Shown here: positions 9,291-34,440 of the stretch, one piece after another
Layout: every line of letters begins with the position of its first letter
How positions within the stretch are numbered: position 1 is the stretch's first letter
Assembly: GCA_963708025.1 (NCBI GenBank)
Contig: CAVPSB010000037.1
Span: forward strand, 10,200 to 74,199
Origin: an uncultured Candidatus Rokubacteria bacterium
GTDB lineage: Bacteria > Methylomirabilota > Methylomirabilia > Rokubacteriales > DASRDR01
Length of the DNA stretch: 64,000 nucleotides
Direction of reading: 5' to 3'
Translations under genes and position numbers: made by a program
Notes under the pieces: model-generated
Databases searched by the model: none
What the model saw: the letters and a program-made list of their open reading frames with translations, nothing else
What the model was told of the DNA's origin: nothing

Positions 9291-9309
9291 GAGACGGCCT
9301 AGTCATCAG

Positions 9310-9345
9310 CCGCTCCGGCTGGGCGGTGGGCGGGAGGTCCCGAAC
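9310..9345 (+). repeat. Palindromic intergenic repeat family, short copy
   Basis: CTCCGGCT-GGGCGGTGGGCGGGAGGTCCCGAA, matches 12888-12920. Confidence 0.65.
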
Positions 9346-10554: not shown

Positions 10555-10567
10555 CGGAGTCGAGCCC

Positions 10568-11719
10568 ATGGACTTCGAGCTGAGCGAGGAGCAGCAGCTC
10601 TTCCGCAAGACCCTCCGGGACTTCGTCCGCGACCGGATCGCCCCGGTGGCGCGGGAGTGGGAGCAGGCGGGCCGGTATCCGACCGAGATCGTCGAGGGCA
10701 TGAAGGGGCTGGGGCTCTTCGGCCTGACGGTCCCCGAGGCGTACGGCGGGCTGGCCGTCGATCTCGTCTCCTACGCCATCGCGTTCGAGGAGATCGCCCG
10801 GGGGTGGATGGGGATCGCCGGCATCCTCGGCAGCCACTCCCTGGCCTGCTGGCTGCTGGCGCGGCACGGGACGGAGGCGCAGCGGGGGCGCTGGCTCCCC
10901 GACCTCGCGACCGGCCGGCGGCGGTCGGGGCTGGCCCTGACCGAGCCGGGGGTGGGGAGCGATCTCCAGGCGATCACGACGCGCGCCGTCCGGGACGGCG
11001 ACGCCTACGTGCTCAGCGGGACCAAGATGTGGATCACGAACGCGCGCCACGCCGATCCCCTCCCGGTCCTCTGCGTGACCGATCCGGCGGCGGCGCCGCG
11101 CCATCGCGGCATCAGCGTGCTGATGGTCGAGGCCGGCACCCCGGGGTTCACGGTGGGCCGTGACCTGGGTAAGCTCGGCTACAAGGGCACCGAGTCGTGC
11201 GAGGTCCACTTCGAGTCCGCCCGGGTCCCGGCGGCCAACCTCCTCGGCGGCGCCGAGGGGCAGGGCTTCCGGCAGGTCATGACCGTGCTCGAGATCGGCC
11301 GCCTCAACGTCGCCGGGCGCAGCATCGGCATCGCCCAGGCCGCCTGCGACGCCGCGCTCCGCTACTCGCGCGAGCGTCACGCCTTCGGTCAGCCCATCGG
11401 CGACTTCCAGGCCGTGCAGCTCAAGCTCGCCGACATGGCCACCGGGATCCAGGCCGCCCGGCTCCTCACGTGGTGGGCCGCCGCCCGCACGGACCGCGGG
11501 GAGCGGGCCGACGCCGAGACCGCGATGGCCAAGCTCTTCGCCTCCGAGCTCGCCCTCCGGGCCGCGCTCGACTCGATGCGGATCCACGGCGGCTACGGCT
11601 ACTCGACGGAGTTCGAGGTGGAGCGCCTCTACCGGGACGCCCCGCTGATGGCGATCGGCGAGGGCACCAACGACATCCTGCGGGTCCTGATCGCCCGCGC
11701 CCTCGCCCGGGAGGCCTGA
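10568..11719 (+). CDS. Acyl-CoA dehydrogenase
   Basis: ALTEPGVGSD, GTKMWITN, HGGYGY, IGEGTNDI. Confidence 0.95.
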   Translation: MDFELSEEQQLFRKTLRDFVRDRIAPVAREWEQAGRYPTEIVEGMKGLGLFGLTVPEAYGGLAVDLVSYAIAFEEIARGWMGIAGILGSHSLACWLLARHGTEAQRGRWLPDLATGRRRSGLALTEPGVGSDLQAITTRAVRDGDAYVLSGTKMWITNARHADPLPVLCVTDPAAAPRHRGISVLMVEAGTPGFTVGRDLGKLGYKGTESCEVHFESARVPAANLLGGAEGQGFRQVMTVLEIGRLNVAGRSIGIAQAACDAALRYSRERHAFGQPIGDFQAVQLKLADMATGIQAARLLTWWAAARTDRGERADAETAMAKLFASELALRAALDSMRIHGGYGYSTEFEVERLYRDAPLMAIGEGTNDILRVLIARALAREA

Positions 11720-11724
11720 GCGCC

Positions 11725-11845
11725 TGTGAAGCGATCGGTTCCTCCGGCTCCCCCCTCCCCCACGGCCAAAGGCCGAAGGCCGTCGAAAGGTAGGGGAGGG
11801 GGGCCAAAGGCCGAAGGCCGTCGAAGGATCGGGTGGGCGGGAGGA
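11725..11845 (+). repeat. Palindromic repeat family, long copy with two GGCCGAAGGCC units
   Basis: GGCCAAAGGCCGAAGGCCGTCGAA twice; C-tract/G-tract stem. Confidence 0.85.
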
Positions 11846-11850
11846 GATCG

Positions 11851-12843
11851 ATGACCTCCACCGCGCGCATCATCGACGTCCACGCCCACGTGACGCCGCT
11901 GCGCTTCCAGCGGGCGGTCCTCTCCGGCTCCGACTGGTTCGGGATGACCCCGGCCGACGGCGAGCTCGGCAACATCCGGAACCGCTGGGGTCCGGCCCAG
12001 CGCATCGAGGCGATGGACGCGGCCCTGGTCGACGTCCAGCTCCTGTCGCCGACCGACTGCTTCTACCAGTACCACCGCGAGCCCTCCGTCACCGCGCGTA
12101 TCGCCGCCGAGTGCAACGACGAGGTCGCGGCGATGGTGCGGGATCACCCGGCGCGCTTCATGGGGCTGGGGACCTTGCCGATGCAGGACCCGGACCTGGC
12201 GGTGGCCGAGATGGAGCGCGGCCGGCGCCAGCTCGGACTCAGCGGCTTCATGATCGACGACCACGTCAACGGGCTGACCCACGACCACGACCTGTTCGAC
12301 CCGTTCTGGGCCGCCGCCGAGGCCCTGGGGGCGTTCGTCTTCGTGCACCAGGGCGCGCCCACCTCCGTGACCTACCGGACGCAGAGCTACTTCCTGCTCA
12401 ACTCGGTAGGGAACCTCGTGGATCGCACGCTGACATATGGCTGTCTGGTCTACGGCGGCGTCATGGACCGATACCCGGCGCTCACGGTGTGCCTGGCCCA
12501 CGCCGGCGGGTACGTCCCCTACGCCATGGACCGCATGGACCACGGCTGGAAGGTCCGGCCGGCTTCGCGGGGCCGATCCCGCGACGTGCCGAGCAGCTAT
12601 CTCCGGCGCTTCTACTACGACACCGTGACGTACACCGACCGGAACCTCCGGACGCTGGTCGACATGGTGGGGGCCGACCGCGTGGTCTTCGGAACCGACT
12701 GGCCCGCGCCCATGGCGGTCGAGGACGCGGTCCGCCGCATCCGGTCATCGACCGCGCTGACCGACGAGGAGCGACGCTTGATCCTGACGGACAACACGGA
12801 GCGGATCTTCGCCAGCACCGGCGCCGCCGCCGGCCGGGGCTGA
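11851..12843 (+). CDS. Amidohydrolase_2 family protein (ACMSD-like)
   Basis: IDVHAH, FVH, AHAGG, FYYDT, FGTDWP. Confidence 0.9.
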   Translation: MTSTARIIDVHAHVTPLRFQRAVLSGSDWFGMTPADGELGNIRNRWGPAQRIEAMDAALVDVQLLSPTDCFYQYHREPSVTARIAAECNDEVAAMVRDHPARFMGLGTLPMQDPDLAVAEMERGRRQLGLSGFMIDDHVNGLTHDHDLFDPFWAAAEALGAFVFVHQGAPTSVTYRTQSYFLLNSVGNLVDRTLTYGCLVYGGVMDRYPALTVCLAHAGGYVPYAMDRMDHGWKVRPASRGRSRDVPSSYLRRFYYDTVTYTDRNLRTLVDMVGADRVVFGTDWPAPMAVEDAVRRIRSSTALTDEERRLILTDNTERIFASTGAAAGRG

Positions 12844-13516: not shown

Positions 13517-14410
13517 TCATGGGTCCACCGTTCCCTCCCGAGGACCCGCGGACAAGACACCCCGACAGGGTACGGCAGGCGATACGGCTACACCAAGGAA
13601 CCTGTCAAGCGAGGGCGAGGCAGAGGGCGGGCGGTCAATGCGTCGCGGCGGGGGGCGGCGCCCCGTCGTGACCGGCATGGACCCCGCCGTCCCGGACCGG
13701 TAGTCGAAGCCAACCGGCGCGTCGGATCGTCCGCCGCGCGGCTCCGGGGCGAGGTTCAAGCTCTCCTTGACCGGCGCGGTGTGCTCGCGCATGAGCGCCT
13801 CCGCCCGCGCGCCTTCGCCGGCTTCGAGCGCCTCGACGATCGCGTGATGCTGGCGGTGAGCGTACCGGAGGATGTCGAACATCGAGGCCTTGTCGAGCCG
13901 GTCGAAGGCCACCGCCCGGGCGGCCGCGAACGGCACGTGGTCGTTCCGGGCGAGGGCGTCGGCGATGGCGCGGCTGCCGGCGGTCTCGACGACGAGCGCG
14001 TGAAAGCGCCCGTTCAGCTCGCTGTATCGCGACTCGTCGGTCTCGAGCAGGTGGCCGCGGGCGAAGATCTCGTCACCGTCCGCCAGGCAGCGTCGCAGCT
14101 CCCGCAAGAGGTCCGGTGACGCGCCGCGCTCGGCCACCAGGCGGGCGGCCAGCCCTTCCAGCACCCCCCGCACGTCGAGCGCCTCGAGAACGTCGCGGGC
14201 GCTGAAGGCGCGGACCACGTAGCCGCGCGCGCCCGCGGGGGCAAGGAGCCCTTCCCGGGCCAGAGCGGGGAGCGCCTGCCGGATCGGCGTGCGCGAGACG
14301 CCGAGTCGCTCGGCCAGGGCGACCTCCCCGAGCCGCTCCCCGGGCGCCAGGTCGCCCCGCAGGATCATCTCCCGCAGCTCCACGACGATGCGCGACTCTC
14401 GGGTGGCCAT
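13517..14410 (-). CDS. GntR/FCD transcriptional regulator, VanR-like (true 3' end uncertain)
   Basis: LREMILRGDLAPGERL..LGVSRTPIRQAL HTH; NGRFH and QHHAIVEAL FCD motifs. Confidence 0.88.
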   Translation of the reverse strand: MATRESRIVVELREMILRGDLAPGERLGEVALAERLGVSRTPIRQALPALAREGLLAPAGARGYVVRAFSARDVLEALDVRGVLEGLAARLVAERGASPDLLRELRRCLADGDEIFARGHLLETDESRYSELNGRFHALVVETAGSRAIADALARNDHVPFAAARAVAFDRLDKASMFDILRYAHRQHHAIVEALEAGEGARAEALMREHTAPVKESLNLAPEPRGGRSDAPVGFDYRSGTAGSMPVTTGRRPPPRRIDRPPSASPSLDRFLGVAVSPAVPCRGVLSAGPREGTVDP

Positions 14411-14436
14411 GTCTCTCTGCCGCTCGGCGGCGCCGT

Positions 14437-14498
14437 TTGTATCCATTCATGCCATACGAGCCGTCATCCGGCCACGTCGTGGGCTGGTTTGGATCCAA
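14437..14498. promoter_or_regulatory. Two vanO-like operator boxes
   Basis: TTGGATCCAA (14489-14498) and TTGTATCCAT (14437-14446); core matches Caulobacter VanR operator ATTGGATCCAAT. Confidence 0.65.
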
Positions 14499-14617
14499 CT
14501 TTTCGGTTAGAGTAGCCATCCGAGGCCCCAACGGTCAAGAGCGGGAGGGTGGGACGCCGGCCCCGCGGTCCGGGAACCCGACCCCACGCGGCGGAGGTCC
14601 CGGCAAGGAGACCCGAC

Positions 14618-15740
14618 ATGCACGCGAGATCGATTCCACCATTTCGCGCCGACCACGTCGGCAGCCTGCTGCGGCCGCCCGAGCTGCTGGCGGCCCGGGA
14701 CCGGTACGCGCGCGAGGAGATCCCCGCGGCCGAGCTCCGCCAGGCGGAGGACCGCTCGATCCGCGACGCGGTGCGGCTTCAGGAAGAGCTGGGGTTCCGG
14801 GCCGCCACGGACGGCGAGCACCGGCGGACGTTCTTCCACATCGACTTCCTCGAGAAGCTGGAGGGGGTCGCGGTGCGGGGCGGGCTGGCGACGCGGTTCC
14901 ACGGCGCGAAGGGTGACGTGGACTTCGCCCCGCCCCGCCTGGAAGTGACCGGCAAGCTCCGCCGCGTCCGGCCGATCCAGCTCGAGGACTTCCGCTACCT
15001 CCAGTCGGTGGCGCGCGTGGTTCCCGAAGGTCTGCATCCCCTCGCCGACCATGGTACATTTCCGCGGAGGGCGGGGGGCGATCAGCCGCGAGGCGTACCC
15101 GGACCTGGAGGAGTTCTTCGGCGACCTGGCCCGCTGCTACCGGGAAGAGCTCGCCGACCTGGCCGGCGCCGGCTGCCGGTATGTCCAGCTCGACGACACC
15201 AACCTGGCCTACCTCTGCGATCCGAAGCTCCGCGAGGGGGCGCGGGAGCGGGGCGACGATCCCGAGGCGCTGCCGCGCCGGTACGCCCGGCTCATCAACG
15301 CGGCGCTGCGCGATCGCCCGGCCGGCCTCACCGTGGGCATCCACCTGTGCCGCGGTAACTTCAAGAGCGCCTGGGTCGCCGAGGGAGGCTACGAGCCGGT
15401 GGCCGAGGTCCTCTTCAACGAGCTCGACGTTGACGGGTACTTCCTGGAGTACGACGACCATCGATCGGGGGACTTCGCCCCGCTCCGGTTCGTCCCGCGC
15501 GGCAAGAAGCTGGTGGTGCTCGGGCTCGTCACCTCCAAGGTGGGCGCACTCGAGCCGAAGGCCGAGCTGGCGCGGCGAATCCAGGACGCCGGCCGCTACG
15601 TGCCGCTGGAGCAGCTCGCGCTGAGCCCCCAGTGCGGCTTCTCCAGCACGGTGCACGGGAACCAGGTGACCTTCGAGGAGCAGCGGGCGAAGCTCGGGCT
15701 GGTGGTGGAGACCGCGGCCGAGGTCTGGGGCTCTCTCTGA
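14618..15740 (+). CDS. Cobalamin-independent methionine synthase family, catalytic domain only; frameshift near 15025
   Basis: PFRADHVGSLLRP, TDGEHRR, HLCRGN, LEYD, SPQCGF (Zn ligands intact). Confidence 0.88.
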
Positions 15741-15745
15741 GAGCC

Positions 15746-15843
15746 TGAAGGACTCGGGTCTTCGGCTCCCGCTCCCCCCGGCCACAGGCCGAAGGCCGTG
15801 AAGGGTGGGGGAGGGGGGCTGGGGGGGTAGGCGGGAGGCCCGA
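15746..15843 (+). repeat. Palindromic repeat family copy
   Basis: CTCCCCCCGGCCACAGGCCGAAGGCCGT..GGGTGGGGGAGGGGGGCTGGGGGGGTAGG..GGGAGG. Confidence 0.88.
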
Positions 15844-15859
15844 TCAGGAGGACGCCGTC

Positions 15860-16513
15860 ATGGCGATCGACGTCGAGAAGCTGAGGCGGACGGGGACGCC
15901 GAGCGACCTGCCGTTCTCGATCCGGAAGATCGGACACGTCGTCCTCCGCGCCTCCGACCTCCAGCGCTCGGTTGACTTCTACACGAAGGTGCTCGGGTTC
16001 GAGATCTCCGACGTCTACCCCGAGGAGATGGTGCCGGGCGGGATGGTCTTCATGCGCTGCAACGCGGACCACCACGGCGTCGCCCTCGTGGGCGGCATGT
16101 CCGGTCCCGCCGCCAAACGGGAGCTCGACCACTTCGCGTTCGAGGTCGCCACGCTCGACGAGGTATTCCGTGCCCGCCGGCACCTGCGGGAGCGCGGGGT
16201 GCCCGTCGTCTTCGAAGGCCGCCGCCGGGCCGGCGTGCAGATCGCCATCGAGTTCAACGACCCCGACGGGCACCACCTCGAGATCTACTGGGGGGTGGAC
16301 CAGGTCGGCCCCGACGGCCGGGTCCGCCCCGCCGCGGAGTGGCGGGGCGCCAAGACGCTGGAGGAGGCGGTGGCGAACCCCGTGCCCGGCCAGCATCCGG
16401 CGCTCTCCGACCCAACCCTCCTCCAACCGGGGGCCATCGTTCCGGCCCCCCCCTCCCCCCCGGCCACAGGCCGAAGGCCGTCGAAGGGTGGGGGAGGGGG
16501 GCTGGGGGGGTAG
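15860..16513 (+). CDS. VOC family protein (glyoxalase/extradiol dioxygenase-like)
   Basis: IGHVVL, DHHGVAL, LDHFAFEV, DPDGHHLEIY; repeat-derived C-terminal tail. Confidence 0.85.
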   Translation: MAIDVEKLRRTGTPSDLPFSIRKIGHVVLRASDLQRSVDFYTKVLGFEISDVYPEEMVPGGMVFMRCNADHHGVALVGGMSGPAAKRELDHFAFEVATLDEVFRARRHLRERGVPVVFEGRRRAGVQIAIEFNDPDGHHLEIYWGVDQVGPDGRVRPAAEWRGAKTLEEAVANPVPGQHPALSDPTLLQPGAIVPAPPSPPATGRRPSKGGGGGLGG

Positions 16514-16527
16514 GAGGGAGGTCCCGA
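16445..16527 (+). repeat. Palindromic repeat family copy overlapping the VOC 3' end
   Basis: Near-identical to 15772-15843. Confidence 0.88.
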
Positions 16528-17235
16528 ATGACGGCCCTCGTGGTGAGCGCGCACGCGGCGGACTTCGTCTGGCGCTGCGCCGGCGCGATCGCTCTGTACG
16601 CCCGGCGCGGTTACGAGGTCACCATCCTGTGCCTGTCCTACGGCGAGCGCGGCGAGTCGGCCAAGCTCTGGCGCGAGCCGGGGATGACCCTGGAGCGGGT
16701 CAAGCAGAGTCGCCACCAGGAGGCGCAGGCGGCGGCGGACGTCCTGGGGGGGCGGCTCGTCACGTTCGACGCCGGCGACTACCCGCTCCGGCTCACCGAC
16801 GAGCTGTTCGCCCGGCTGGTCGACCTGTACCGGGACGTCCGCCCGGCGTTCGTGCTGACCCACGCGCTCGAGGACCCCTACAACCGCGACCACCCGGACG
16901 CCGCGCGGCTGGCCCAGGAGGCGCGCATCGTCGCCCAGGCGCACGGCCACCGGCCAGAGCAGAAGGTGATCGGCGCGCCGCCCGTGTTCCTGTTCGAGCC
17001 CCACCAGCCGGAGCAGTGCAACTTCCGGCCGCAGGTGCTGCTCGCGATCGACGAGGTGTGGGAGGTCAAGCGGAAGGCGATGGAGTGCATGGCGGCCCAG
17101 GAGCACTTGTGGGAGTACTACACGCGCGTCGCGCTGCAGCGAGGCGTGCAGGCCGCCCGCAACTCGGACCGCCAGGTGAAGTACGCCGAGGCCTACCAGC
17201 GGATCTACCCCCAGGTCACGGACGCCCTGGCATGA
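16528..17235 (+). CDS. galB: 4-oxalomesaconate hydratase (PIG-L family)
   Basis: ALVVSAHAADFVWR, SYGERGESAKLW, DPYNRDH, FEPHQPEQC. Confidence 0.82.
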   Translation: MTALVVSAHAADFVWRCAGAIALYARRGYEVTILCLSYGERGESAKLWREPGMTLERVKQSRHQEAQAAADVLGGRLVTFDAGDYPLRLTDELFARLVDLYRDVRPAFVLTHALEDPYNRDHPDAARLAQEARIVAQAHGHRPEQKVIGAPPVFLFEPHQPEQCNFRPQVLLAIDEVWEVKRKAMECMAAQEHLWEYYTRVALQRGVQAARNSDRQVKYAEAYQRIYPQVTDALA

Positions 17236-17246
17236 ACGGCGGACCG

Positions 17247-18386
17247 ATGGGGCAGACCCGGATTCCCTGCCTGATGATGCGAGGCGGCACCTCGAAGGGT
17301 GCGTACTTCCTCGCCGCCGACGTCCCCGCGGATCCCGCGCGGCTCGAGCGGGTCCTGCTCGCCGTCATGGGCTCGCCCGACCGGCGGCAGATCGACGGGC
17401 TGGGCGGCGCGGATCCGCTGACCAGCAAGGTGGCCATCGTCGGCCCGCCGACCCGGGCCGACGCCGACGTTGACTACCTGTTCGCGCAGGTGGTCGTTGA
17501 CGAGCCGCGGATCGACCTCAACCAGAACTGCGGGAACCTCCTGGCCGGGGTGGCGCCGTTCGCGATCGAGCGCGGCCTGGTCGAGGCACGCGAGGGCGAG
17601 ACGCGGGTCCGCATCCACATGGTCAACAGCGCGAGCCTGGCCGAGGCCACCGTGCAGACGCCGGACGGGCGCGTCCGGTACGACGGCGAGGCCCGCATCG
17701 ACGGCGTGCCGGGGACGCACGCCCCGGTGCTGATCGACTTCCTGGACGTCGCCGGCTCGTCCTGCGGCGCCCTGCTGCCGACCGGCAACGCCGTTGACGT
17801 TCTCGATGGCGTCCCCTGCACGCTGATCGACAACGGGATGCCGGTGGTCGTGGTGGCGGCGGCCGCCCTCGGCCGCACGGGCTACGAGTCCAAGCCGGAG
17901 CTGGACGCGGACGACGAGCTCAAGCGTCGCGTCGAGGCGGTCCGCCTGAAGGCGGGACCGCTGATGAACCTGGGCGACGTCGCGCGGAAGAACGTGCCGA
18001 AGGTGTCGCTGGTGGCGCCGCCCCGGGCGGGCGGCGCCCTGTGCACCCGGACCTTCATTCCCCGCGACTGCCACGCGGCGATCGGCGTGCTCGGCGCGGT
18101 GACGGTGGCGGCCGCCTGCGTGTGGCCGGGCTCGGTCGCGGCCGGGGTGGCGGTGGTGCCCGCCGGCGCCCGCAAGCGCCTGGCGATCGAGCACCCCAGC
18201 GGCGAGTTCACCGTCGAGCTGGACGTCGAGGAAGCCGGCGGCCGTCCCCGGCTCCGGCGCTCGGCGCTGCTGCGGACCGCCCGGCTCCTGTTCGACGGCT
18301 ACGTGCACGTGCCGGCCGGCGTCTGGGACGGCCGGAGCGGTCGGCCGGGGCCGGAGCAGCGGGCGGCCGCGGCGCCGGGACGCTGA
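17247..18386 (+). CDS. galD: 4-oxalomesaconate tautomerase (PrpF family)
   Basis: MRGGTSKG, QIDGLGGADPLTSKVAI, NCGN, EHPSG, LLRTAR. Confidence 0.87.
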   Translation: MGQTRIPCLMMRGGTSKGAYFLAADVPADPARLERVLLAVMGSPDRRQIDGLGGADPLTSKVAIVGPPTRADADVDYLFAQVVVDEPRIDLNQNCGNLLAGVAPFAIERGLVEAREGETRVRIHMVNSASLAEATVQTPDGRVRYDGEARIDGVPGTHAPVLIDFLDVAGSSCGALLPTGNAVDVLDGVPCTLIDNGMPVVVVAAAALGRTGYESKPELDADDELKRRVEAVRLKAGPLMNLGDVARKNVPKVSLVAPPRAGGALCTRTFIPRDCHAAIGVLGAVTVAAACVWPGSVAAGVAVVPAGARKRLAIEHPSGEFTVELDVEEAGGRPRLRRSALLRTARLLFDGYVHVPAGVWDGRSGRPGPEQRAAAAPGR

Positions 18387-18398
18387 CCGGGCGCCGCC

Positions 18399-19877
18399 GT
18401 GATCCTCCACGCCAACCACATCGGGCCAGGCGGCGCTGCGCTGCCGGCGCTCAGTGAGAAGGCCGGCGAGGTCGTCCGGACGGTGCTGGGCCTCGTCGGG
18501 GAGGGGCGGTTCGACCCGCGCGTGGTGTCGGGTCTCCGCCTCCACCTCGACTGGATCCAGTACCGGGCCAACTTCCGGGAGCCGGTGACCGTCCGCCGGG
18601 CGACCGATCCGCGCGGGGGGACGGCCGCCCTCGCCGAGATCGCCGTCGACCTCCGCCGGGTCGAGCCGGCGTCCCTCCGCACCGCCCTCGCCGACGCCTT
18701 CCGCGCCGTGAGCGACGACGCGGCCCTCGATCCCTCCGGCGCGTCCGGGCGCCTCTACCTCGACGACTGGGTGCCGCTGCGCGACAGCGTGATCTGGCGG
18801 TTCAACCACCTCTTCTGGCAGCACGTGGCCGACTGGGAGGCCGCCGTCGGGCGGCGGTTCGAGGAGGCGCTGCCGAGCGGTCGCTCCGACGCCAACCACC
18901 CGGAGGCGGTGGCGGATTCGGTGGCCGACTTCTGGACCCTCCTGCGCGACCTGGAGAAGCGGGGGCGGCTTCCCGCCGAGCTGTTCGTGCTGGAGATCGG
19001 CGTGGGATCCGGGATGCGCGCCGGGCTCTGGCTGGACCGCTTCCGCGCGCTGGACGAGGAGCGGGGCACGACCTACTACCCGCGCCTGCGGTTCCTGCTC
19101 GGCGACTACTCGCTGCCGACGCTGGACCGCGCCCTGGCGGCGGTGGCGTCCCACGGCGACATCGTGAGCGTCATCGCCATGGACGCGCTGAACCCGCTCA
19201 AGACGCTTGCCTTCTTGCGATACAAGATCCTCTACGTCCACCTCACGAACGTCTACGACAACCTGCCCCACGACGAGCTGGTCCGTCGCGATGGCCGCCT
19301 CTACCTGGTCGAGGCCCGCGGCTACCTCTCGCGGGAGGACGCCGAGCGGATCGCGGCCGCCGCCGGGCTGGCGCCCGAGGCCGTCGGCCCGACGGTGGAG
19401 CACCTGCTCCGGATCGGCCCCGGGGCCCTGGGGACGACGGATCGGGGGGTCGCGTTCTGGCGGGCGGTGTGGGACGCCCTCCGCCTGGAGGAGCGGCTCG
19501 TACAGCTGGACGACGTCGCCCAGGCGCCCATCCCGCCCGGGCTCGACCGGAGCCATCTCGAGGACCTGCTGGGCGAGGCCCCGGACGACGTGCGCTTCCA
19601 CCTCTCGCGGGGCGCCGCCGAGAGCTTCGTCCACACCGTGCCCCTCCTCCATCCGCGCGGCTACCTCCAGGTCCAGGACATCTTCGTGACCGACATGCAC
19701 GAGTACCGGCAGGGCTTCCGCGGGCCCGGCAAGCTCGACGGGTCGGTCGTGAACTGGGTCAACGGCGCCCTCCTGCGCGCGATCGGGGCGCGCGCGGGCT
19801 ACGACGTCCACTTCGCGCCGTTCCGGTACCGGGCGGGGTCGCGGACGTCGATCCTCTACACCACCCCGCGGGAGTGA
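18399..19877 (+). CDS. Uncharacterised class I SAM-methyltransferase-like protein
   Basis: VLEIGVGSG motif-I-like sequence; long host-like ORF within the operon. Confidence 0.65.
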   Translation: MILHANHIGPGGAALPALSEKAGEVVRTVLGLVGEGRFDPRVVSGLRLHLDWIQYRANFREPVTVRRATDPRGGTAALAEIAVDLRRVEPASLRTALADAFRAVSDDAALDPSGASGRLYLDDWVPLRDSVIWRFNHLFWQHVADWEAAVGRRFEEALPSGRSDANHPEAVADSVADFWTLLRDLEKRGRLPAELFVLEIGVGSGMRAGLWLDRFRALDEERGTTYYPRLRFLLGDYSLPTLDRALAAVASHGDIVSVIAMDALNPLKTLAFLRYKILYVHLTNVYDNLPHDELVRRDGRLYLVEARGYLSREDAERIAAAAGLAPEAVGPTVEHLLRIGPGALGTTDRGVAFWRAVWDALRLEERLVQLDDVAQAPIPPGLDRSHLEDLLGEAPDDVRFHLSRGAAESFVHTVPLLHPRGYLQVQDIFVTDMHEYRQGFRGPGKLDGSVVNWVNGALLRAIGARAGYDVHFAPFRYRAGSRTSILYTTPRE

Positions 19878-19882
19878 CGTCG

Positions 19883-20881
19883 ATGTCGGAGCTCTTGCCC
19901 ACCGCCGTCGTCGGAAGCTACGCGATGCCCGGGTGGCTCGAACGGGTGAAGAACGACTACCTGCACCGCCGGCTGTCCCGCCACGACCTCGACGACATCC
20001 ACGACACCGCGGTGAAGGCGGCGATCAAGGACCAGGAAGTGGCCGGCGTCGACATCGTCTCGGACGGGGAGCTCCGCCGGGAGAACATGATCGATCACTT
20101 CACGACCCGGCTCCCCGGGGTCGAGATCGACCACGCGTCGAAGCGCTCCTACTACGATCTGTACGACTGCGTGGTGCGCGGGCGGCTCCCCACCGGCTCG
20201 CTCGGGCTGGTCGAGGAGTTCCGCTTCCTCCGGCGCTTCACCGACCGGCGCGCGAAGATCTCCGTCACCGGCCCCCACTCGCTCGTCAAGCGCATCCGCA
20301 ACGCCCACTACCCGAGCGACGAGGCCTTCGCCCTCGACATCGCCCGCGTCCTGAACGTCGAGCTGCGCGAGCTGGTGCGGGCGGGGGCGACCGACATCCA
20401 GATCGACGAGCCGTACTACTCGGGGTTCCCCGAGGACCTGCCGTGGGGCGTGCGCGCGATCAACGCGCTCGTCGAGGGCGTGGGGGCGTGGCTGTCGCTC
20501 CACGTCTGCTACGGGAACCGCTACGGCAAACCCTCGTGGGAGGGGAGCTACCGCTACCTGTTCCCGGCGATCCTCGACGCGCGCGTGAACCAGCTCACGC
20601 TGGAGTTCGCGCGACGAGGCGACGAGGACGTCCGGCTCTTCAAGGAGTTCGATCCGCCGTTCACTCTTGGCCTCGGCGTCATCGACGTGAAGAGCCACGA
20701 GGTCGAGACCCCGGGGATGGTCGCCGAGCGGGTCCGCGCCGGCCTCGACGTCGTGCCGGCGGCCCGGCTCGCGATCAACCCGGACTGCGGGCTCCTGCAC
20801 CTCCCCCGGGCCGTCGCGTTCGCGAAGCTGGGGGCGATGGTGGACGGGACGCGGATCGTGCGCCGGGAGGTCGGCGGCTGA
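19883..20881 (+). CDS. Second cobalamin-independent methionine synthase family protein (catalytic domain only)
   Basis: TAVVGSY, SDGELRRE, QIDEP, HVCYGN, LEF, NPDCGL. Confidence 0.88.
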   Translation: MSELLPTAVVGSYAMPGWLERVKNDYLHRRLSRHDLDDIHDTAVKAAIKDQEVAGVDIVSDGELRRENMIDHFTTRLPGVEIDHASKRSYYDLYDCVVRGRLPTGSLGLVEEFRFLRRFTDRRAKISVTGPHSLVKRIRNAHYPSDEAFALDIARVLNVELRELVRAGATDIQIDEPYYSGFPEDLPWGVRAINALVEGVGAWLSLHVCYGNRYGKPSWEGSYRYLFPAILDARVNQLTLEFARRGDEDVRLFKEFDPPFTLGLGVIDVKSHEVETPGMVAERVRAGLDVVPAARLAINPDCGLLHLPRAVAFAKLGAMVDGTRIVRREVGG

Positions 20882-22400
20882 ACAGTCTGGCGGCGGCGCT
20901 CCAGGGTGGCCGCTTCTGCTACGTCGTGGAGCTGGTCGCCTCGGCCCTCAGTCGCGAGGCGAAGCTCCTCGAGGTGGCCTCGGGCCTCGCCCGTCTCCCT
21001 GACGTGGTGGCCGGGAGCGTCACCAGCTACGCGGGGGGCGCCATGGGCCACGACCCGATCCGGGTCGGCGCCGCCGCCCGCGCCCGGGGGCTCACGCCCA
21101 ACGTCCACCTGACGTGCGTCAGCCAGGACCGCCAGGCCGTGCGCAAGACGCTCGAGGACCTCCACGCCCTCGGGATCGAGAACGTCTTCGCGCTCACCGG
21201 CGACTATCCGCGATCCGGGCCCGCCGGGAAAGACCGGCCGGCCGAGCCGCCGGTGTTCGACCTCGACTCGGTCCAGCTCGTCCGCCTGATCGACGACCTC
21301 CGCCGGGCGGGCCGGGGCTTCCACGTCTCGGTCGCGGTCTCCCCGTTCAAGTACATCGAGGCGGACTGCCTCTGGCAGTACCTGAAGCTCGAGAAGAAGA
21401 TCGCCGCCGGCGCCGACTGCGCCATCACCCAGGTCGGCTGGGACGCGGAGAAGTTCCGCGAGCTCAAGCGCTACCTCGGCGAGCGCGGGCTGACCACGCC
21501 GCTCCTCGGCAACGTCTACGTCCTCGGCCCGCGCACCGCCGAGCGGATGAGCCGGGGCGAGCCGCCGGGGTGCTGGGTGTCGCCGGCGCTGCTGGCTACC
21601 GTCCAGCAGGAGAGCCGGGCCCCGGACGGCGGCCGGCGCGCCCGCCTGGAGCGCGCCGCGCGGACGGTCGCGGTGCTCCGCGGCCTCGGGTACGCCGGCG
21701 CCTACATCGGCGGCACCCACGACCCCGCGCACATCGAATGGATCGTCCGCCGGGCGGCGGAGCTGGCCCCGCGCTGGGAGGAGCTGGCCGTGGAGCTAGC
21801 CTACGGCGCCGAGGACGGGTTCTACCTGTACGCGGATCGCGGCCGCGGCGCCCGGTCGGCGACGCCGGCCGGCGCGCCCCCGCTCCGCCCGCCGCCGGGC
21901 CAGGGGCGGCTGGTCACGGCGATCGTGCCGCGCGCCCTCGACCTCCTGGGCCGGCTCTTCCCGGTGACGCGCGACACCTGGCTCCGCCGGGCCCTCCGCC
22001 GGCTCGGCGCGCGGGTGGACCGGATCCCGGCGCTGGCGGGCGCGGTCGAGCGCGTCGAGCGGGCGGTGAAGACGCCCCTCTTCGGCTGCCAGTCCTGCGG
22101 CAACTGCGTGCTCGGCCACCTGGAGTACGTCTGCCCGCAGACGTGCCCGAAGCAGCTCCGGAACGGCCCGTGCGGGGGCACTCACCTCGGGCGCTGCGAG
22201 GTGGTGCCGGACCAGCCGTGCATCTGGGTCGGGATGTACGAGCGCGCCCGCGCGGGCGGCCGGGTCCACGGGCCTGCTCACCTACGTGCCGCCGCCGGCC
22301 CGGTCGCTCCAGGGCACCAGCTCCTGGCTCAACTACCTCCTCGAGCGCGACAGCCGACCCTCGACCCTCGCCCCCGACCCGTAGCTGGCCCGACCTCCTC
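20878..22400 (+). CDS. metF: Methylenetetrahydrofolate reductase fused to a C-terminal Cys-rich MTHFR_C/MetV-like domain; frameshift near 22270, end approximate
   Basis: VHLTC, ALTGDY, KKIAAGADCAITQ; CQSCGNC...CPQTCPKQLRNGPCGG...CEV...CIW. Confidence 0.8.
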
Positions 22401-22503: not shown

Positions 22504-23493
22504 TCAGCCGTCGCCCACCTCGAGGAGGAGCTTGCCGCTGACGCCCCGCCCCTCCAGGTGCCGGTGCATGTCCGAGCAGGCCGCCATCGGATAGCGCGCT
22601 TCGATCGGGATCGCGAGCCGCCCCTGGAGCAGCGCATCCAGGACGTAGCGGACCCCGCGCCGCCAGCGCGGCGAGCCCGGCCGGGCGTGCAGGAGCTCGA
22701 ACCCGGCCAGGCTCGTGGAGCGCTCGTAGAGCTTGGGTCGGACGGGGAAGTCGGGATAGCCGGCCGCCTCGCCGATGTTGATCACCCGGCCGAAGGGTCG
22801 CAGCAGTTCGAAGCTGCGCGGCAGCACGTCGGCCCCCAGCGAGTCGATCACCAGATCCACGCCGCGCCCCCGGGTGAAGGCCATCGTGGCGGCGACGAAG
22901 TCCTCCCGGCTCCGGTCGATCACGCGGTCGGCGCCGAAGGCCAGCGCGCGGGCGGCCTTGGCCGCCGACCCGGTGGTCCCGATGACGCGGGCCCCGAACG
23001 CCTTGGCGAGCTGCGTGAGGCAGAGCCCGACGCCGCCGCCGATGGCGTGCACGAGGATCGTCTCGCCCTCCCGCACCCGGTGGGCGGTGCGCAGGAGGTG
23101 ATACGCGGTGAGCGCGACGACCGGAAAGGCGGCGCCGAGCTCGAGCGGTAGCGCCTCGGGAAGCGGAACGACGTAGGACGCCGGTACCGCCACGCGCTCG
23201 GCGTAGCCCCCCAGCATGCGGGGACCGGTCAGGGCCGCCACGCGGGCGCCGACCGTCACGTCGCGCACGGCCGACCCGACGGCCGCCACCCGCCCGGAGA
23301 CTTCGAGCCCGATGATCGCCGGGTAGCTGACCGGCTCGGGATAGACCCCTTGCCGCTTCTGGACGTCGCTCCAGTTACAGCCGGCCCAGGCGACCTCGAT
23401 CAGCACCTCGTCGGGCTCGGGGAGCGGCGCCGGGAGCTCGCGCAGGGCGAGCGCCTCGGGGTCGCCCGGGGACTCGACCACGATGGCCCGCAT
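22504..23493 (-). CDS. NADPH:quinone oxidoreductase (MDR family)
   Basis: YPAIIGLEVSG, GGYAE, HAIGGGVG, GRGVDLVIDSLG, GKLLL. Confidence 0.9.
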   Translation of the reverse strand: MRAIVVESPGDPEALALRELPAPLPEPDEVLIEVAWAGCNWSDVQKRQGVYPEPVSYPAIIGLEVSGRVAAVGSAVRDVTVGARVAALTGPRMLGGYAERVAVPASYVVPLPEALPLELGAAFPVVALTAYHLLRTAHRVREGETILVHAIGGGVGLCLTQLAKAFGARVIGTTGSAAKAARALAFGADRVIDRSREDFVAATMAFTRGRGVDLVIDSLGADVLPRSFELLRPFGRVINIGEAAGYPDFPVRPKLYERSTSLAGFELLHARPGSPRWRRGVRYVLDALLQGRLAIPIEARYPMAACSDMHRHLEGRGVSGKLLLEVGDG

Positions 23494-23528: not shown

Positions 23529-24335
23529 TCACGCTGGGCGGGCAGGGGGCCGGGCGCCCGCGCGGGGGAACGCGGCCTCGAGCGAGTGGACCACGAGCTC
23601 CACGCACTCGTCGGTCAGCAGCCGGCCGATCTCGGCCGTCGCGGCCTTCGCCGGGGACAGCACCCCCGTCGGCGGGATCCAGCTCGTGTCCGTGGGGTAG
23701 ACGTCGTAGGGTGGGGGCGCCGCCGGGGGATCGTTCGGGACCTGGCCCATGTCTACGCGGTCCGGGAAGAGGTGGAGCATCAGCGCGGTCTCGAGGACGC
23801 CGGCGTGCTCGAGATCGAGGCCGGGGAAGCCGTGCGGGAAGATCCGGGCCAGGGTCTCCGGCCGGATCGTCTCGCAGTACCGCATCTTGAGGACGCGGAG
23901 GTCCTCCGGTCCCTCGGCCCGGGCGTCGCGGATCGCGAGGTCGATCCCCTCGGTGAGGAACATCTGGTTCTCGTAGTGACCGTCGATCAGGGCGATCCGC
24001 CGGGCGCCGTGGCGGGCGAACTCGCGGAGGAGGTCGCGGACGGTTGACGTCAGGGTCCCGCCGTCCAGGCTGGTGGTGCCGCAGAAGTGGTTGCCGCCGC
24101 CGGTGCGCGGCTGGGACTTGTAGCCGTAGGTCAGCGCGGGGGCGACGACGCCGCCGAGCCGCTCGGCCACCCGGCGCGCCATCTCCGTCGCCAGGATGGC
24201 GTCGGTCCCCAGCGGGAGGTGCGGGCCGTGCTGCTCGAGGGCGCCGACCGGAAGCAGCACGACGGCGCCCTCCGTCGCCACCCGCTCCCGGTACTCGATC
24301 CACGACATCTCCGACATGAAGACCGAACGGGCCAT
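23529..24335 (-). CDS. Creatininase (creatinine amidohydrolase family)
   Basis: PVGALEQHGPHLPLGTD, DGHYEN, EHAGVLET. Confidence 0.9.
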   Translation of the reverse strand: MARSVFMSEMSWIEYRERVATEGAVVLLPVGALEQHGPHLPLGTDAILATEMARRVAERLGGVVAPALTYGYKSQPRTGGGNHFCGTTSLDGGTLTSTVRDLLREFARHGARRIALIDGHYENQMFLTEGIDLAIRDARAEGPEDLRVLKMRYCETIRPETLARIFPHGFPGLDLEHAGVLETALMLHLFPDRVDMGQVPNDPPAAPPPYDVYPTDTSWIPPTGVLSPAKAATAEIGRLLTDECVELVVHSLEAAFPRAGARPPARPA

Positions 24336-24455
24336 CGGCTCCTCCTCCTTGGTCGCGCGGTGTCGGCTGTGTGCCGCCGCCCCGTATTGCACGGCGGGGG
24401 CGCGGTGGTGTCAAGCCGTCCGTCCCCGCGGTTCCCGTCCGTGCGGGCGGGCGGG

Positions 24456-24484
24456 TTGACACTCTCTCGATGCCCTCCTAGAGT
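24456..24484 (+). promoter_or_regulatory. Sigma70-type promoter
   Basis: TTGACA-17 bp-TAGAGT upstream of the ureohydrolase. Confidence 0.65.
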
Positions 24485-24531
24485 GAGTCGTCAGCTTCGT
24501 CGCAGCGCACGCTCATCGCGGGAGGGCGCGG

Positions 24532-25587: not shown

Positions 25588-25612
25588 CGCGCAGGAGAGA
25601 GGAAACCACCGG

Positions 25613-26554: not shown

Positions 26555-26583
26555 GCCGGACGGCCGACGAGGTCAGGGCGACC

Positions 26584-30750: not shown

Positions 30751-30858
30751 CTAGTGCCGTTCCAACTTGATGCGGCTATTGCTCGGCGCCAGGTCGCACG
30801 GCGCCGCGCCCGTGACAGGGCCGTCGGCAACTCGTTGAGAAAGCTCGAACGGCACTAG
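30751..30858. mobile_element. MITE-like element with terminal inverted repeats, CTAG at both ends
   Basis: Left CTAGTGCCGTTCCAACTT vs reverse complement of right CTAGTGCCGTTCGAGCTT (16/18). Confidence 0.7.

Positions 30859-32936: not shown

Positions 32937-34440
<1,504 letters not shown>

What the first reader, a model, noticed from the sequence alone, without database searches (positions are those of the whole stretch)
13517..22400. VanR-like regulated operon joining oxalomesaconate catabolism to a two-MetE / methyltransferase / MetF-MetV methyl module
Seen: a GntR-FCD gene with a TTGGATCCAA palindrome faces a co-directional run of short MetE-like protein, VOC protein, galB, galD, SAM-methyltransferase-like ORF, second short MetE-like protein and MetF-MetV fusion. 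Known: VanR senses vanillate; GalB/GalD act on the gallate ring-cleavage product; Sphingobium links O-demethylation (LigM/DesA) to MetF. No vanAB, ligM/desA, galA/ligAB or galC lies in this window. Inference: an undescribed route for methoxylated aromatics in which Zn-thiol MetE-fold enzymes and the unknown ORF handle the methyl group, and the VOC protein may act on the ring.
Basis: partly seen in the sequence, partly recalled or inferred. Interest (0 to 1): 0.78.

Follow-up and report, generated by a model that had tools for sequence, protein, structure and literature searches.

The report
Gallate genes spliced into methyl operon
In this soil bacterium a cut-down set of genes for breaking down a plant-phenol ring product sits inside an unrelated, widespread and still unexplained three-gene methyl-transfer unit, so the two are probably neighbours by accident and not one new pathway.

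Summary
Two of them (first MetE-like gene, MetF-MetV) change frame at C/G homopolymers; related short-read contigs lack those letters, so both are probably intact. The proposed joint route for methoxylated aromatics fails its own refutation test. The 492-aa unknown ORF, the core MetE and MetF-MetV form a conserved unit (core MetE follows in 74 of 76 loci, MetF-MetV in 61 of 66) in Rokubacteria and Acidobacteriota, and 0 of 80 such loci carry GalB, with one weak VOC and one weak PrpF match. Conversely, 0 of 80 GalB loci carry the methyl unit. There GalB sits with GalC, GalD, a VOC protein and a GntR 54-59% identical to the window's. The window's GalD has no orthologue in 250 other genomes of its phylum, and GalC is missing. 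So this is a composite: an acquired, truncated gallate-type cassette inside a native methyl module. The unknown ORF folds (pLDDT 89) as a MidA/COG1565-like SAM-methyltransferase and occurs fused to MetF-MetV elsewhere. This scan noted the same module earlier on other DNA (e1-3174818). Its chemistry remains open.

The parts
13517..14446 (-). GntR-FCD regulator; belongs to the gal-type cassette
   Evidence: Pfam GntR 57.3 bits and FCD 56.6 bits. Homologues at 54-59% identity lie beside GalB-GalC-GalD in L112, L113, L115, L131 and L145. No NCBIfam model reached its cut-off.
14489..14498 (.). Perfect palindrome TTGGATCCAA in the 171-nt divergent spacer; candidate operator, unproven
   Evidence: Single match in the window. 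No exact copy in the 178 loci held at that point. 1260 of 5000 shuffles of the spacer give a perfect 10-nt palindrome.
14618..15740 (+). YxjG/1YPX-type short MetE paralogue (MetE1); read in two frames in the window because of one extra C at 15023-15025
   Evidence: NCBIfam PRK06520: N part 93 bits (positions 3-130), C part 331.9 bits (positions 144-368; cut-off 313). 1YPX 257.3 bits. The HxC, E and C zinc motifs are visible in the translation. An X6 contig omits one letter at 15023; X1 record 2 and X10 record 9 are each one letter shorter over the site.
15860..16513 (+). One-domain VOC metalloprotein, candidate ring-cleaving dioxygenase; conserved part ends near 16426
   Evidence: Glyoxalase 91.1 bits. 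Aligns to the catalytic domain of BphC 1HAN with His/His/Glu kept. Relatives at 75% (L100) and 63% (L103) identity lie directly before GalB. Positions 16425-16531 are replaced by 33 letters in X1 and X6 contigs.
16528..17235 (+). GalB-type 4-oxalomesaconate hydratase (PIG-L family)
   Evidence: PIG-L 72 bits. Homologues at 69-97% identity are named 4-oxalomesaconate hydratase by JGI. GalC follows GalB in 44 of 62 related loci.
17232..18386 (+). GalD, 4-oxalomesaconate tautomerase
   Evidence: NF033377 at 531.6 bits, cut-off 440. In the tree it groups with GalD of gal cassettes (sister to L103), far from the phylum's PrpF clade. No match at E<=1e-90 in 250 other genomes of the phylum.
18399..19877 (+). 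492-aa MidA/COG1565-like class I methyltransferase-fold protein (UNK), first gene of the conserved methyl module
   Evidence: No Pfam or NCBIfam hit. AF2 model pLDDT 89. 1ZKD Z 19.7, MidA 5ZTZ Z 19.2, 4G67 Z 18.6 over residues 117-492. Foldseek E 6e-8. ExGxGxG and D236 are conserved. Fusions with MTHFR-DUF5981 exist.
19874..20881 (+). Core (C-terminal-domain-only) MetE, MesD-like (MetE2)
   Evidence: Meth_synt_2 136.4 bits. Best solved relative is 3RPD at 146 bits, with all Zn ligands and homocysteine-binding residues kept. It follows UNK in 74 of 76 loci.
20926..22384 (+). MetF-MetV fusion (MTHFR + DUF5981); frame change at the GGG run at 22270, so the window's own ORF runs on to 22497
   Evidence: PF02219 81.8 bits and PF12225 84.1 bits. 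Cys-rich MetV motif. The GC3 frame switches after about 22200. The protein-like C-terminus in the other frame stops at 22382. X1 and X6 contigs omit one letter at 22270.

Best explanation
The locus is a composite of two units with separate histories and, most likely, separate functions.

Unit 1 is a horizontally acquired, trimmed gallate-type lower-pathway cassette: a GntR-FCD regulator, a one-domain VOC metalloenzyme that probably opens a trihydroxy- or dihydroxy-benzoate ring, the GalD tautomerase and the GalB hydratase. The GalC aldolase that normally lies between GalB and GalD has been lost.

Unit 2 is a module native to the lineage: a MidA-like methyltransferase-fold protein, a core MetE and MetF-MetV, here preceded by a YxjG-type MetE paralogue.

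For unit 2 I commit to a methyl-cycle reading. MetF-MetV reduces methylene-THF to 5-methyl-THF. The Zn-dependent core MetE methylates homocysteine to methionine. The MidA-like protein is the SAM-binding third member, either the methyltransferase that spends the methyl group on an unknown acceptor or a required partner of the synthase.

Shown: gene identities, synteny statistics, the fold, conserved catalytic residues, the fusions, and the reality of the junctions. Inferred: horizontal origin, the direction of the MetF-MetV reaction, the methyl donor of the core MetE, SAM binding, and all biochemistry. Co-transcription from one promoter is likely from the spacing but has not been observed.
For: Module:
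- UNK relatives are encoded in 284 species genomes.
- In the best 80 loci the core MetE follows UNK in 74 of 76 and MetF-MetV in 61 of 66.
- The approximate UNK-to-MetE gap has a median of 11 nt.
- No other neighbour is shared by more than 19 of 80 loci, and the neighbours annotated are unrelated.
- Fusions MTHFR-DUF5981-UNK (P0162, P0176) and MTHFR-UNK (P0202) exist.
- UNK is 75-79% identical in genomes of the same family.
- MetE2 keeps the Zn and homocysteine residues of 3RPD.

Cassette:
- GalD passes the equivalog model and groups with cassette GalDs, not the phylum's PrpF.
- It is absent at E<=1e-90 from 250 other genomes of the phylum; the best match in 40 relatives is 48% identical.
- The genome's second PrpF lies in a citrate synthase-aconitase-PrpF operon.
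- The usual cassette is VOC-GalB-GalC-GalD-(dehydrogenase)-GntR.
- None of the 80 GalB loci has the module.

Junctions:
- X1 record 4 spans GalB-GalD and 38 letters of UNK.
- X1 record 3 spans VOC-GalB.
- X6 record 24 spans GntR-MetE1.
- X6 record 30 spans MetE2-MetF-MetV.
- L099 (GalB 97% identical) also has GalD directly after GalB.
Against: - The eight genes are packed as one apparent operon with no terminator-like site inside, and the arrangement persists in related strains. That is what selection for co-expression would also give.
- A LigM-like gene follows the same module in L057 and in the earlier scan note, so links to lignin-type C1 flow recur.
- MetE1 lies between the GntR and the VOC gene, which a single block insertion does not explain. 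Its orthology to the YxjG-like gene upstream of UNK in relatives is ambiguous (51-55% identity to two paralogues).
- For the module, a SAM-type fold is an odd partner for making methionine.
- The genome already has a canonical metE-metF pair and a split MetE.
- UNK co-occurs with MetH in 24 of 50 genomes, so nothing shows that the module is needed for methionine.
- No expression data: no RNA holder was listed.
Confidence: 0.6

Rival explanations
1. One reading: the fusion is functional. An O-demethylase encoded elsewhere loads methyl groups from syringate- or vanillate-type compounds onto THF. MetF-MetV (run in reverse) and the core MetE drain 5-methyl-THF, while VOC, GalD and GalB process the ring. 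All are under the aromatic-sensing GntR.
For: - Tight co-directional packing with no internal terminator-like site.
- The junctions are kept in related strains from other runs.
- A LigM-like gene lies right after the module in L057 (1 of 80) and in scan note e1-3174818.
- LigM-like genes lie in 9 of 80 GalB loci.
- A VanA_C-type oxygenase and four LigB-family genes exist elsewhere in the genome.
- The coupling of LigM to MetF in Sphingobium SYK-6 is a recalled precedent.
Against: - There is no synteny in 80 + 80 loci.
- The genome has no LigM orthologue and no GalC orthologue by tblastn above 80 bits.
- LigK best score is 87 bits against a cut-off of 304.5.
- GalC has been lost from the cassette, so the ring branch looks incomplete.
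- The module occurs in 50 of 251 genomes of the phylum without any gal genes beside it.
Confidence: 0.15
2. The module is a fifth kind of core methionine synthase. The MidA-like protein is the obligatory partner, as MesX is for MesD, that passes a methyl group originating from 5-methyl-THF to the core MetE. The gal genes are bystanders.
For: - MetE2's closest solved relative is the MesD structure 3RPD, with all functional residues kept.
- It lacks the folate-side N-terminal domain.
- UNK-to-MetE2 adjacency holds in 74 of 76 loci, often overlapping.
- Fusions of UNK to MTHFR-MetV exist.
- Precedent: MesD requires MesX (PMC7857596, passages read).
- In the window's family, 16 of the 17 other genomes with UNK lack MetH.
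Against: - UNK has a SAM-methyltransferase fold with its binding motifs kept, and no such fold is known to me to carry folate methyl groups.
- At phylum scale UNK and MetH co-occur in 24 of 50 genomes.
- Most UNK genomes of the family also have a split MetE.
- The own genome has a canonical MetE (1019.5 bits).
- No complex prediction could be run.
Confidence: 0.2
3. The apparent operon is an assembly chimera or a decaying region, and the frame breaks mark pseudogenes.
For: - There are two frame changes within 9 kb.
- The genome has 8.18% estimated contamination.
- Several other genes in the window look truncated.
Against: - Independent short-read contigs bridge the GalD-UNK, VOC-GalB, GntR-MetE1 and MetE2-MetF-MetV junctions.
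- Both breaks are at homopolymers and are absent from at least one related contig each.
- The coding signal (GC3 0.87-0.99) continues across both breaks.
Confidence: 0.05

Closest known systems
Gallate (gal) cluster of Pseudomonas putida KT2440: GalA dioxygenase, GalD tautomerase, GalB hydratase, GalC aldolase, GalR (recalled from Nogales et al. 2011; paper not held in the library. PMC5065237 seen only in a search listing)
   Same: A GalD equivalog and a PIG-L-type GalB lie next to each other.
   Different: - No LigB-type GalA and no GalC in the window.
- A one-domain VOC protein stands where a dioxygenase would be.
- The regulator is GntR-FCD, not LysR.
- No transporter genes are adjacent.
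MesD/MesX folate-independent core methionine synthase (Price et al. 2021, PMC7857596; abstract and passages read)
   Same: - A half-size MetE with Zn and homocysteine residues kept; its closest solved relative is the MesD structure 3RPD.
- It is always paired with an uncharacterised neighbour gene.
   Different: - Only 146 bits to 3RPD, while the paper's MesD threshold is 560 bits to ACIAD3523.
- The partner is a MidA-like methyltransferase fold, not DUF1852 (no PF08908 match in the genome, though that search rang in no control genome).
- MetF-MetV is linked here, whereas MesD does not need MetF.
MidA / NDUFAF7 and other COG1565 (Methyltransf_28) proteins: PDB 5ZTZ/5ZU0, 1ZKD, 4G67
   Same: - Best structural matches: Z 18.6-19.7 over 275-290 aligned residues; Foldseek E 6e-8 to 1e-6.
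- A GxGxG SAM motif is present.
   Different: - 9-14% identity.
- The window protein misses PF02636, and only 3 of 34 relatives hit it.
- An extra N-terminal domain (residues 1-116).
- The genomic partners are MetE and MTHFR, not complex I.
MetVF-type methylenetetrahydrofolate reductase of acetogens (PMC8760232, abstract seen in search listing)
   Same: An MTHFR domain plus the Cys-rich MetV (DUF5981) module.
   Different: - The two are fused in one chain.
- The organism has no sign here of a Wood-Ljungdahl context.
- Linked to a core MetE and a MidA-like protein.
- The electron donor is unknown.
LigM/DesA-MetF-LigH C1 coupling of Sphingobium sp. SYK-6 (recalled, no paper read)
   Same: Genes for the catabolism of lignin-derived aromatics lie next to a methylene-THF reductase.
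   Different: No GcvT-fold O-demethylase lies here or, by tblastn, anywhere in the genome. The association is not conserved.
Type I (VOC) extradiol dioxygenases such as BphC (1HAN)
   Same: The window VOC aligns to the catalytic domain with the metal-binding His, His and Glu kept.
   Different: - One domain of about 190 residues instead of two.
- The residue aligned to the catalytic Tyr (numbering recalled) is Glu.
- The substrate is unknown.
- I found no paper describing a VOC-type gallate dioxygenase (2 papers hold both terms, neither read).

Membership tests
4-oxalomesaconate tautomerase GalD (NCBIfam NF033377, equivalog) | Score above the curated cut-off of the equivalog model | tested here: met
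   531.6 bits against a cut-off of 440; PrpF TIGR02334 scores only 213.4 against 440.55.
4-oxalomesaconate tautomerase GalD | Lies with other gallate / protocatechuate-4,5 lower-pathway genes | tested here: met
   Overlaps GalB by 4 nt. In the tree it sits among GalDs of GalB-GalC-GalD cassettes.
GalB 4-oxalomesaconate hydratase (PIG-L/LmbE fold) | PIG-L domain, and close similarity to proteins annotated as GalB that lie beside GalC and GalD | tested here: met
   PF02585 72 bits. Relatives at 69-97% identity are named 4-oxalomesaconate hydratase by JGI. GalC follows in 44 of 62 loci. No curated NCBIfam model for GalB matched. Activity not tested.
Complete gal pathway (GalA, GalB, GalC, GalD) | Ring-cleaving gallate dioxygenase of the LigB type (GalA) in the cluster | tested here: not met
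   No PF02900 match on contig C37; the four matches lie on C2, C13 and C16.
Complete gal pathway (GalA, GalB, GalC, GalD) | CHA aldolase GalC/LigK | tested here: not met
   GalB and GalD overlap, leaving no room for GalC. TIGR02798 best score in the genome is 87 bits against 304.5. No tblastn hit above 80 bits with two cassette GalCs.
VanR (vanillate-responsive GntR regulator) | Orthology to a characterised VanR, and control of vanAB | not tested
   No VanR sequence or model was available. No NCBIfam model reached its cut-off. There is no vanAB nearby: the only VanA_C match is on C14. The closest context is gal cassettes.
MesD core methionine synthase (Price et al. 2021) | At least 560 bits to ACIAD3523 (about 72% identity) | tested here: inconclusive
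   ACIAD3523 itself was not available. Against the MesD structure 3RPD the score is only 146 bits, far below family level.
MesD core methionine synthase (Price et al. 2021) | Adjacent MesX (DUF1852) | tested here: not met
   The neighbours are UNK and MetF-MetV. PF08908 found nothing in the genome, but that search rang in no control genome either.
Core MetE (catalytic domain only, Zn-dependent homocysteine methyltransferase) | His-Cys-Glu-Cys zinc ligands, Ser/Glu/Asp substrate residues, and no N-terminal barrel | tested here: met
   All are aligned and kept against 3RPD. The protein is 335 aa and covers Meth_synt_2 positions 1-321.
COG1565 / Methyltransf_28 (MidA, NDUFAF7) | Match to PF02636 | tested here: not met
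   The window protein matches 0 families. 3 of 34 aligned relatives match PF02636 (best E 8.9e-7).
COG1565 / Methyltransf_28 (MidA, NDUFAF7) | Same fold and architecture beyond the generic Rossmann methyltransferase core | tested here: met
   1ZKD Z 19.7 (275 aligned residues), 5ZTZ Z 19.2 (290) and 4G67 Z 18.6 (279). Generic methyltransferases score Z 15-18 with 160-224 aligned. The margin in Z is small.
MetVF-type MTHFR | MTHFR domain plus the MetV (DUF5981) Cys-rich module | tested here: met
   PF02219 81.8 bits and PF12225 84.1 bits. A CxxCxxC...C...C motif is visible in the translation. Cofactors not testable.
Type I extradiol dioxygenase (VOC) | 2-His-1-carboxylate metal site in a VOC module | tested here: met
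   The alignment to 1HAN keeps GH......HF.E... and ...E.yW. Residue numbers are recalled.
Type I extradiol dioxygenase (VOC) | Two-domain architecture and a catalytic Tyr | tested here: not met
   There is a single domain, residues 23-149. Glu aligns where I recall the Tyr. One-domain extradiol enzymes exist (recalled), so this does not exclude the activity.

The most novel reading that the evidence does not exclude
The MidA-like protein, the core MetE and MetF-MetV are an undescribed three-part methionine/methyl-transfer machine of soil Rokubacteria and Acidobacteriota, a fifth core-MetE system whose partner has a SAM-methyltransferase fold. In this lineage it has been placed behind a gallate-pathway regulator, so that methyl groups released from methoxylated lignin monomers are captured as methionine while the ring product is processed.
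Probability: 0.12. Interest if true: 0.85.

Novelty: new variant of a known kind. Interest (0 to 1): 0.5.

Why it matters
If the composite reading holds, the window warns against reading a pathway from one operon: two unrelated units can be packed seamlessly.

Two things of wider interest remain.

First, a very conserved protein is locked to a half-size methionine synthase and an MTHFR in abundant, uncultured soil phyla:
- relatives are encoded in 284 species genomes;
- the 120 best hits are 70-93% identical;
- it has no family assignment.
Working out what it does would fill a gap in how these organisms run one-carbon and methionine metabolism without B12.

Second, many environmental GalB-GalC-GalD cassettes carry a VOC-type protein instead of the LigB-type gallate dioxygenase. 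That points to an alternative ring-opening enzyme for gallate-like compounds.

Tried and rejected
- Complex prediction for UNK with MetE2 could not be run.
- No RNA holder was listed for the stretch, so there is no expression evidence either way.
- Riboswitch idea: no Rfam family reached its gathering score anywhere in the window.
- The promoter/terminator scan found no sigma-70-like site and no terminator-like site inside the run. This is a weak test in a 72% GC genome.
- The first AF2 model, from 23 close sequences, was poor (pLDDT 64.8), and its Foldseek search gave nothing at E<=0.001. It was replaced by the model.
- A profile of 34 UNK relatives against PDB sequences gave only chance-level hits (E 0.8).
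- Idea that the module replaces MetH: within the order, UNK+/MetH- 18, UNK+/MetH+ 2, UNK-/MetH+ 16, neither 5. This follows family lines and dissolves at phylum scale (24 of 50 UNK genomes have MetH).
- The exact palindrome was sought in the 178 loci held at that point and none was found. Looser operator motifs were not searched.
- Orthology of MetE1 with the YxjG-like gene upstream of UNK in L001-L009 is undecided: 51-55% identity to both the window gene and the C19 paralogue.
- Idea that contig C19 (three MetE paralogues, a GcvT-family gene, a PrpF) is an aromatic cluster: rejected. The PrpF sits in a citrate synthase-aconitase-PrpF operon, and the GcvT gene is of the DAO/FAO_M dehydrogenase type.
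- Idea that the Amidohydro_2 gene at 11851-12843 is LigI or LigJ: rejected. It is closest to ACMSD (176.9 bits) and LigW (118.6 bits), with LigJ at only 52.6 bits.
- One search failed because of my own wrong coordinates for L057 and was not repeated.

Full report
**Anatomy.** The window has about 72% GC, so ORF lists are full of shadow frames. I called genes from third-position GC and a codon log-odds score. The run is:
- GntR-FCD, 13517-14446(-)
- a 171-nt spacer with TTGGATCCAA at 14489-14498
- MetE1 from ATG 14618, behind an AAGGAG, to 15740
- VOC, 15860-16513
- PIG-L, 16528-17235
- PrpF, 17232-18386
- a 492-aa ORF (UNK), 18399-19877
- MetE2, 19874-20881
- MTHFR+DUF5981, from 20926

A convergent quinone-oxidoreductase gene follows at 22504-23493(-). 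The gaps are 119, 14, -4, 12, -4 and 44 nt. There is no terminator-like site inside the run.

**Two frame breaks.** MetE1 matches NCBIfam PRK06520 in two frames: positions 3-130 at 93 bits, then positions 144-368 at 331.9 bits against a cut-off of 313. The switch is at a CCC run, 15023-15025. MetF-MetV loses its coding signal after about 22200. In the neighbouring frame a protein-like C-terminus runs to a stop at 22382-22384, and the switch is at a GGG run at 22270.

I laid Logan contigs of four runs on the stretch:
- X6 omits one letter at 15023 (depth 11 of 11).
- X1 record 2 (672 letters over 673 places) and X10 record 9 (429 letters over 430 places) are each one letter shorter across that site. 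The output does not list where.
- X1 (8.68 of 16.2) and X6 (9.88 of 81.6) omit one letter at 22270.
- X5 and X10 show no omission at 22270.

I read both breaks as homopolymer-length errors or strain variants. Both genes are probably intact.

**The methyl module.** UNK has no Pfam or NCBIfam match. Of 8000 candidates scored, 2433 proteins match it. The 120 best are 70-93% identical, carry no Pfam domain, and where named come from Methylomirabilota/Rokubacteria MAGs.

In one genome per species, 284 stretches encode a relative. The best 80 loci are from Rokubacteria and from Acidobacteriota (Vicinamibacterales, Terriglobia, Bryobacteraceae). Across these loci:
- A close MetE2 follows UNK in 74 of 76 loci with enough downstream DNA. 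L035 has none. L043 has a 61% match that failed my length filter.
- MetF-MetV lies within 5 kb in 61 of 66.
- A YxjG-like MetE lies just upstream in 7 of 68.
- GalB and GntR matches: 0 of 80.
- PrpF: 1 of 80 (L024, 35% identity).
- VOC: 1 of 80 (L034, 30% identity).

Approximate gaps are a median of 11 nt for UNK to MetE2 and 51 nt for MetE2 to MetF-MetV. No other ORF cluster is shared by more than 19 loci. The clusters I annotated (21 of the top 40) are unrelated: AMP-binding, E1 dehydrogenase, PQQ dehydrogenase, TonB receptor and others.

**What UNK is.** A search of every 50%-identity representative found 669 relatives, among them long fused forms. P0162 and P0176 are MTHFR + DUF5981 + UNK, and P0202 is MTHFR + UNK. 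P0176 aligns to the window's MetF-MetV in both parts. Five further long forms gave no Pfam hit in their extra part, and P0263 gave only a sub-threshold MTHFR match (22.5 bits against a cut-off of 24). P0243 showed no clear likeness to MetF-MetV.

A model built from 34 diverse sequences has pLDDT 89 and pTM 0.88. Its structural matches are:
- Foldseek: COG1565 proteins 4G67, 4F3N and 1ZKD, and MidA 5ZU0/5ZTZ, on top (E 6e-8 to 1e-6).
- An all-against-all structural search: 1ZKD Z 19.7 (275 aligned, 3.0 A), 5ZTZ Z 19.2 (290 aligned), 4G67 Z 18.6 (279 aligned).
- Generic class I methyltransferases: Z 15-18 with 160-224 aligned residues.
- All matches fall on residues 117-492. Residues 1-116 were not tested alone.

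The ExGxGxG motif, D236 and D262-A263 are invariant or nearly so. Only 3 of 34 relatives reach PF02636. The ESM Atlas places the protein next to clusters named SAM-dependent methyltransferase, in which PF02636 is carried by 15-18% of members.

**MetE2.** It is a core MetE. Its best solved relative is 3RPD (146 bits), which Price et al. treat as a MesD structure. The His, Cys, Glu and Cys zinc ligands and the Ser, Glu and Asp substrate residues are all aligned and kept (PMC7857596, passages read). By that paper's threshold it is not MesD. No DUF1852 was found in the genome, with the caveat that this search rang in no control genome.

**Genome context.** The genome (8.17 Mb, 49 contigs, 99.67% complete, 8.18% contamination) has:
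- a canonical MetE (1019.5 bits) directly followed by a canonical MetF (251.8 bits) on C20;
- a split MetE on C10;
- 20 Meth_synt_2 matches in all.

Within the order, UNK and full-length MetH look complementary (18 / 2 / 16 / 5). Across 251 genomes of the phylum, however:
- UNK is in 50 and MetH (E<=1e-120) is in 161.
- 24 of the 50 UNK genomes have MetH, against 137 of 201 without UNK (hand-tallied from the tables).
- The 137 of 201 includes the unpublished genomes G038, G113 and G244. Without them it is 134 of 198.

So the profile neither proves nor excludes a role in methionine synthesis.

**The gal cassette.** The PrpF protein passes the 4-oxalomesaconate tautomerase equivalog (531.6 bits against 440). 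The 120 best PIG-L relatives are 69-97% identical, and many are named 4-oxalomesaconate hydratase by JGI. That GalB belongs to the PIG-L family is recalled.

Evidence that the window's GalD is not native to the phylum:
- In 40 relatives the best PrpF match is 48% identical.
- At E<=1e-90, none of 250 other genomes of the phylum has one.
- The genome's second PrpF (44%) sits in a citrate synthase-aconitase-PrpF operon.
- In a FastTree of 37 sequences (all tblastn matches of at least 300 residues; shorter ones dropped), the window's GalD is sister to L103 among cassette GalDs. A long branch separates it from the clade holding the relatives' PrpF and the C19 copy.

I examined 80 metagenome loci of GalB (of 584 confirmed):
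- GalC (RraA-like) follows GalB in 44 of 62 loci with at least 500 nt downstream. GalD follows directly in none of those 62.
- Upstream of GalB, in 59 loci with at least 700 nt: a two-domain VOC in 19, a window-type one-domain VOC in 2, GalD in 9, something else in 29.
- Pfam scans of L103, L113, L145 and L174 show VOC-GalB-GalC-GalD. L113, L145 and L174 also carry a GntR-FCD gene, L113 and L174 a DUF1932 dehydrogenase, L103 an FAD monooxygenase and L113 a GCV_T gene.
- The window's GntR has homologues at 54-59% identity in L112, L113, L115, L131 and L145.
- None of the 80 loci has UNK or MetF-MetV. The only MetE2-like match is 25% identical, 4 kb away, in L102.
- L099 (GalB 97%, GalD 94% identical) has GalD directly after GalB, as in the window.

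The genome has no tblastn match above 80 bits to two cassette GalCs or to the LigM-like protein of L113. Its best LigK score is 87 bits against a cut-off of 304.5. It has four LigB-family genes and one VanA_C gene on other contigs.

The VOC protein aligns to the catalytic domain of BphC (1HAN) with the metal-binding His, His and Glu kept.

**Is the junction real?** Short-read contigs from other runs, 95-99% alike, bridge several junctions:
- GalB-GalD-UNK: X1 record 4, 16971-18436
- VOC-GalB: X1 record 3
- GntR-MetE1: X6 record 24
- MetE2-MetF-MetV: X6 record 30

The MetE1-VOC and UNK-MetE2 junctions are not bridged by any listed record.

**Reading.** The two units have independent distributions, and the gal unit is foreign to the phylum as sampled, so I take the locus as a composite. 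Three things keep a functional link alive at about 15%:
- the seamless packing;
- the odd position of MetE1 between the GntR and the VOC gene;
- a LigM-like gene right after the same module in L057 (1 of 80), also noted earlier by this scan on an acidobacterial operon (e1-3174818).

I found no paper that links COG1565 to methionine synthase (0 papers). A search on core-MetE, MTHFR, MetV and methyltransferase (43 papers, 12 listed, titles and abstract openings seen; one of them, PMC12366255, also read in passages) showed none describing this module.

Noticed in passing
whole genome G000 (e.g. C19:96277-97380, C19:107851-108879, C19:120134-121168, C2:174355-176594, C26, C34, C14): Large expansion of short MetE-like (Meth_synt_2) genes: 20 matches in the genome. 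Several lie beside ABC transporters, a PhyH-type dioxygenase or metallo-beta-lactamase-fold genes. Relatives carry 2-13 matches each.
   Followed up: partly
G000:C20:64232-67413 and G000:C10:80451-82203: A canonical metE is directly followed by a canonical metF on C20. On C10 a split MetE (N-domain-like gene followed by catalytic-domain gene) is present; it is also seen in most genomes of the family.
   Followed up: partly
metagenome loci L113, L115, L116, L123-L127, L131, L135, L145, L174 and others: Many environmental GalB-GalC-GalD cassettes carry a two-domain VOC protein directly upstream of GalB (19 of 59) and sometimes a LigM-like GCV_T gene (9 of 80). This suggests a VOC-type ring-cleaving enzyme in place of the LigB-type gallate dioxygenase.
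   Followed up: partly
L138:709-1014: Between GalB and GalD there is only a roughly 100-residue remnant matching the first half of GalC (53% identity). GalC decay may therefore recur in other lineages.
   Followed up: no
window 28261-28713, 30855-31301, 31653-32525, 33047-34440: Several genes look truncated or split: the C-terminal third of an 8-oxoguanine-deaminase-like gene, and pieces of ABC permease and ATPase genes. With the two homopolymer frame breaks in the studied run, this suggests more indel errors in the assembly.
   Followed up: no
window 23529-27199: Creatininase (347.3 bits, cut-off 235), an agmatinase/ureohydrolase-family gene, an unknown gene and a urea-amidolyase-associated-like gene form a guanidino-compound cluster just downstream. 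It is not conserved beside the module elsewhere.
   Followed up: no
window 7902-12843: A cluster of PrpD/MmgE-family, family III CoA-transferase and acyl-CoA dehydrogenase genes plus an ACMSD/LigW-like decarboxylase lies upstream of the GntR. The decarboxylase is closest to ACMSD (176.9 bits) and 5-carboxyvanillate decarboxylase (118.6 bits).
   Followed up: partly
window 39688-41070: UbiD-family decarboxylase (TIGR00148, 289.4 bits, above its cut-off of 244.85; VdcC-like at 234.8 bits), another possible aromatic-acid enzyme in the window.
   Followed up: no
window 16425-16531: The 3' end of the VOC ORF and the spacer before GalB are replaced by a 33-letter stretch in X1 and X6 contigs. The Gly/Pro-rich tail of the window's VOC protein is therefore strain-specific.
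   Followed up: no
G011:C11 and C5, G017, G142 (relatives): In some related genomes UNK is found in two pieces or with internal stops. These may be assembly errors or decay of the module.
   Followed up: no
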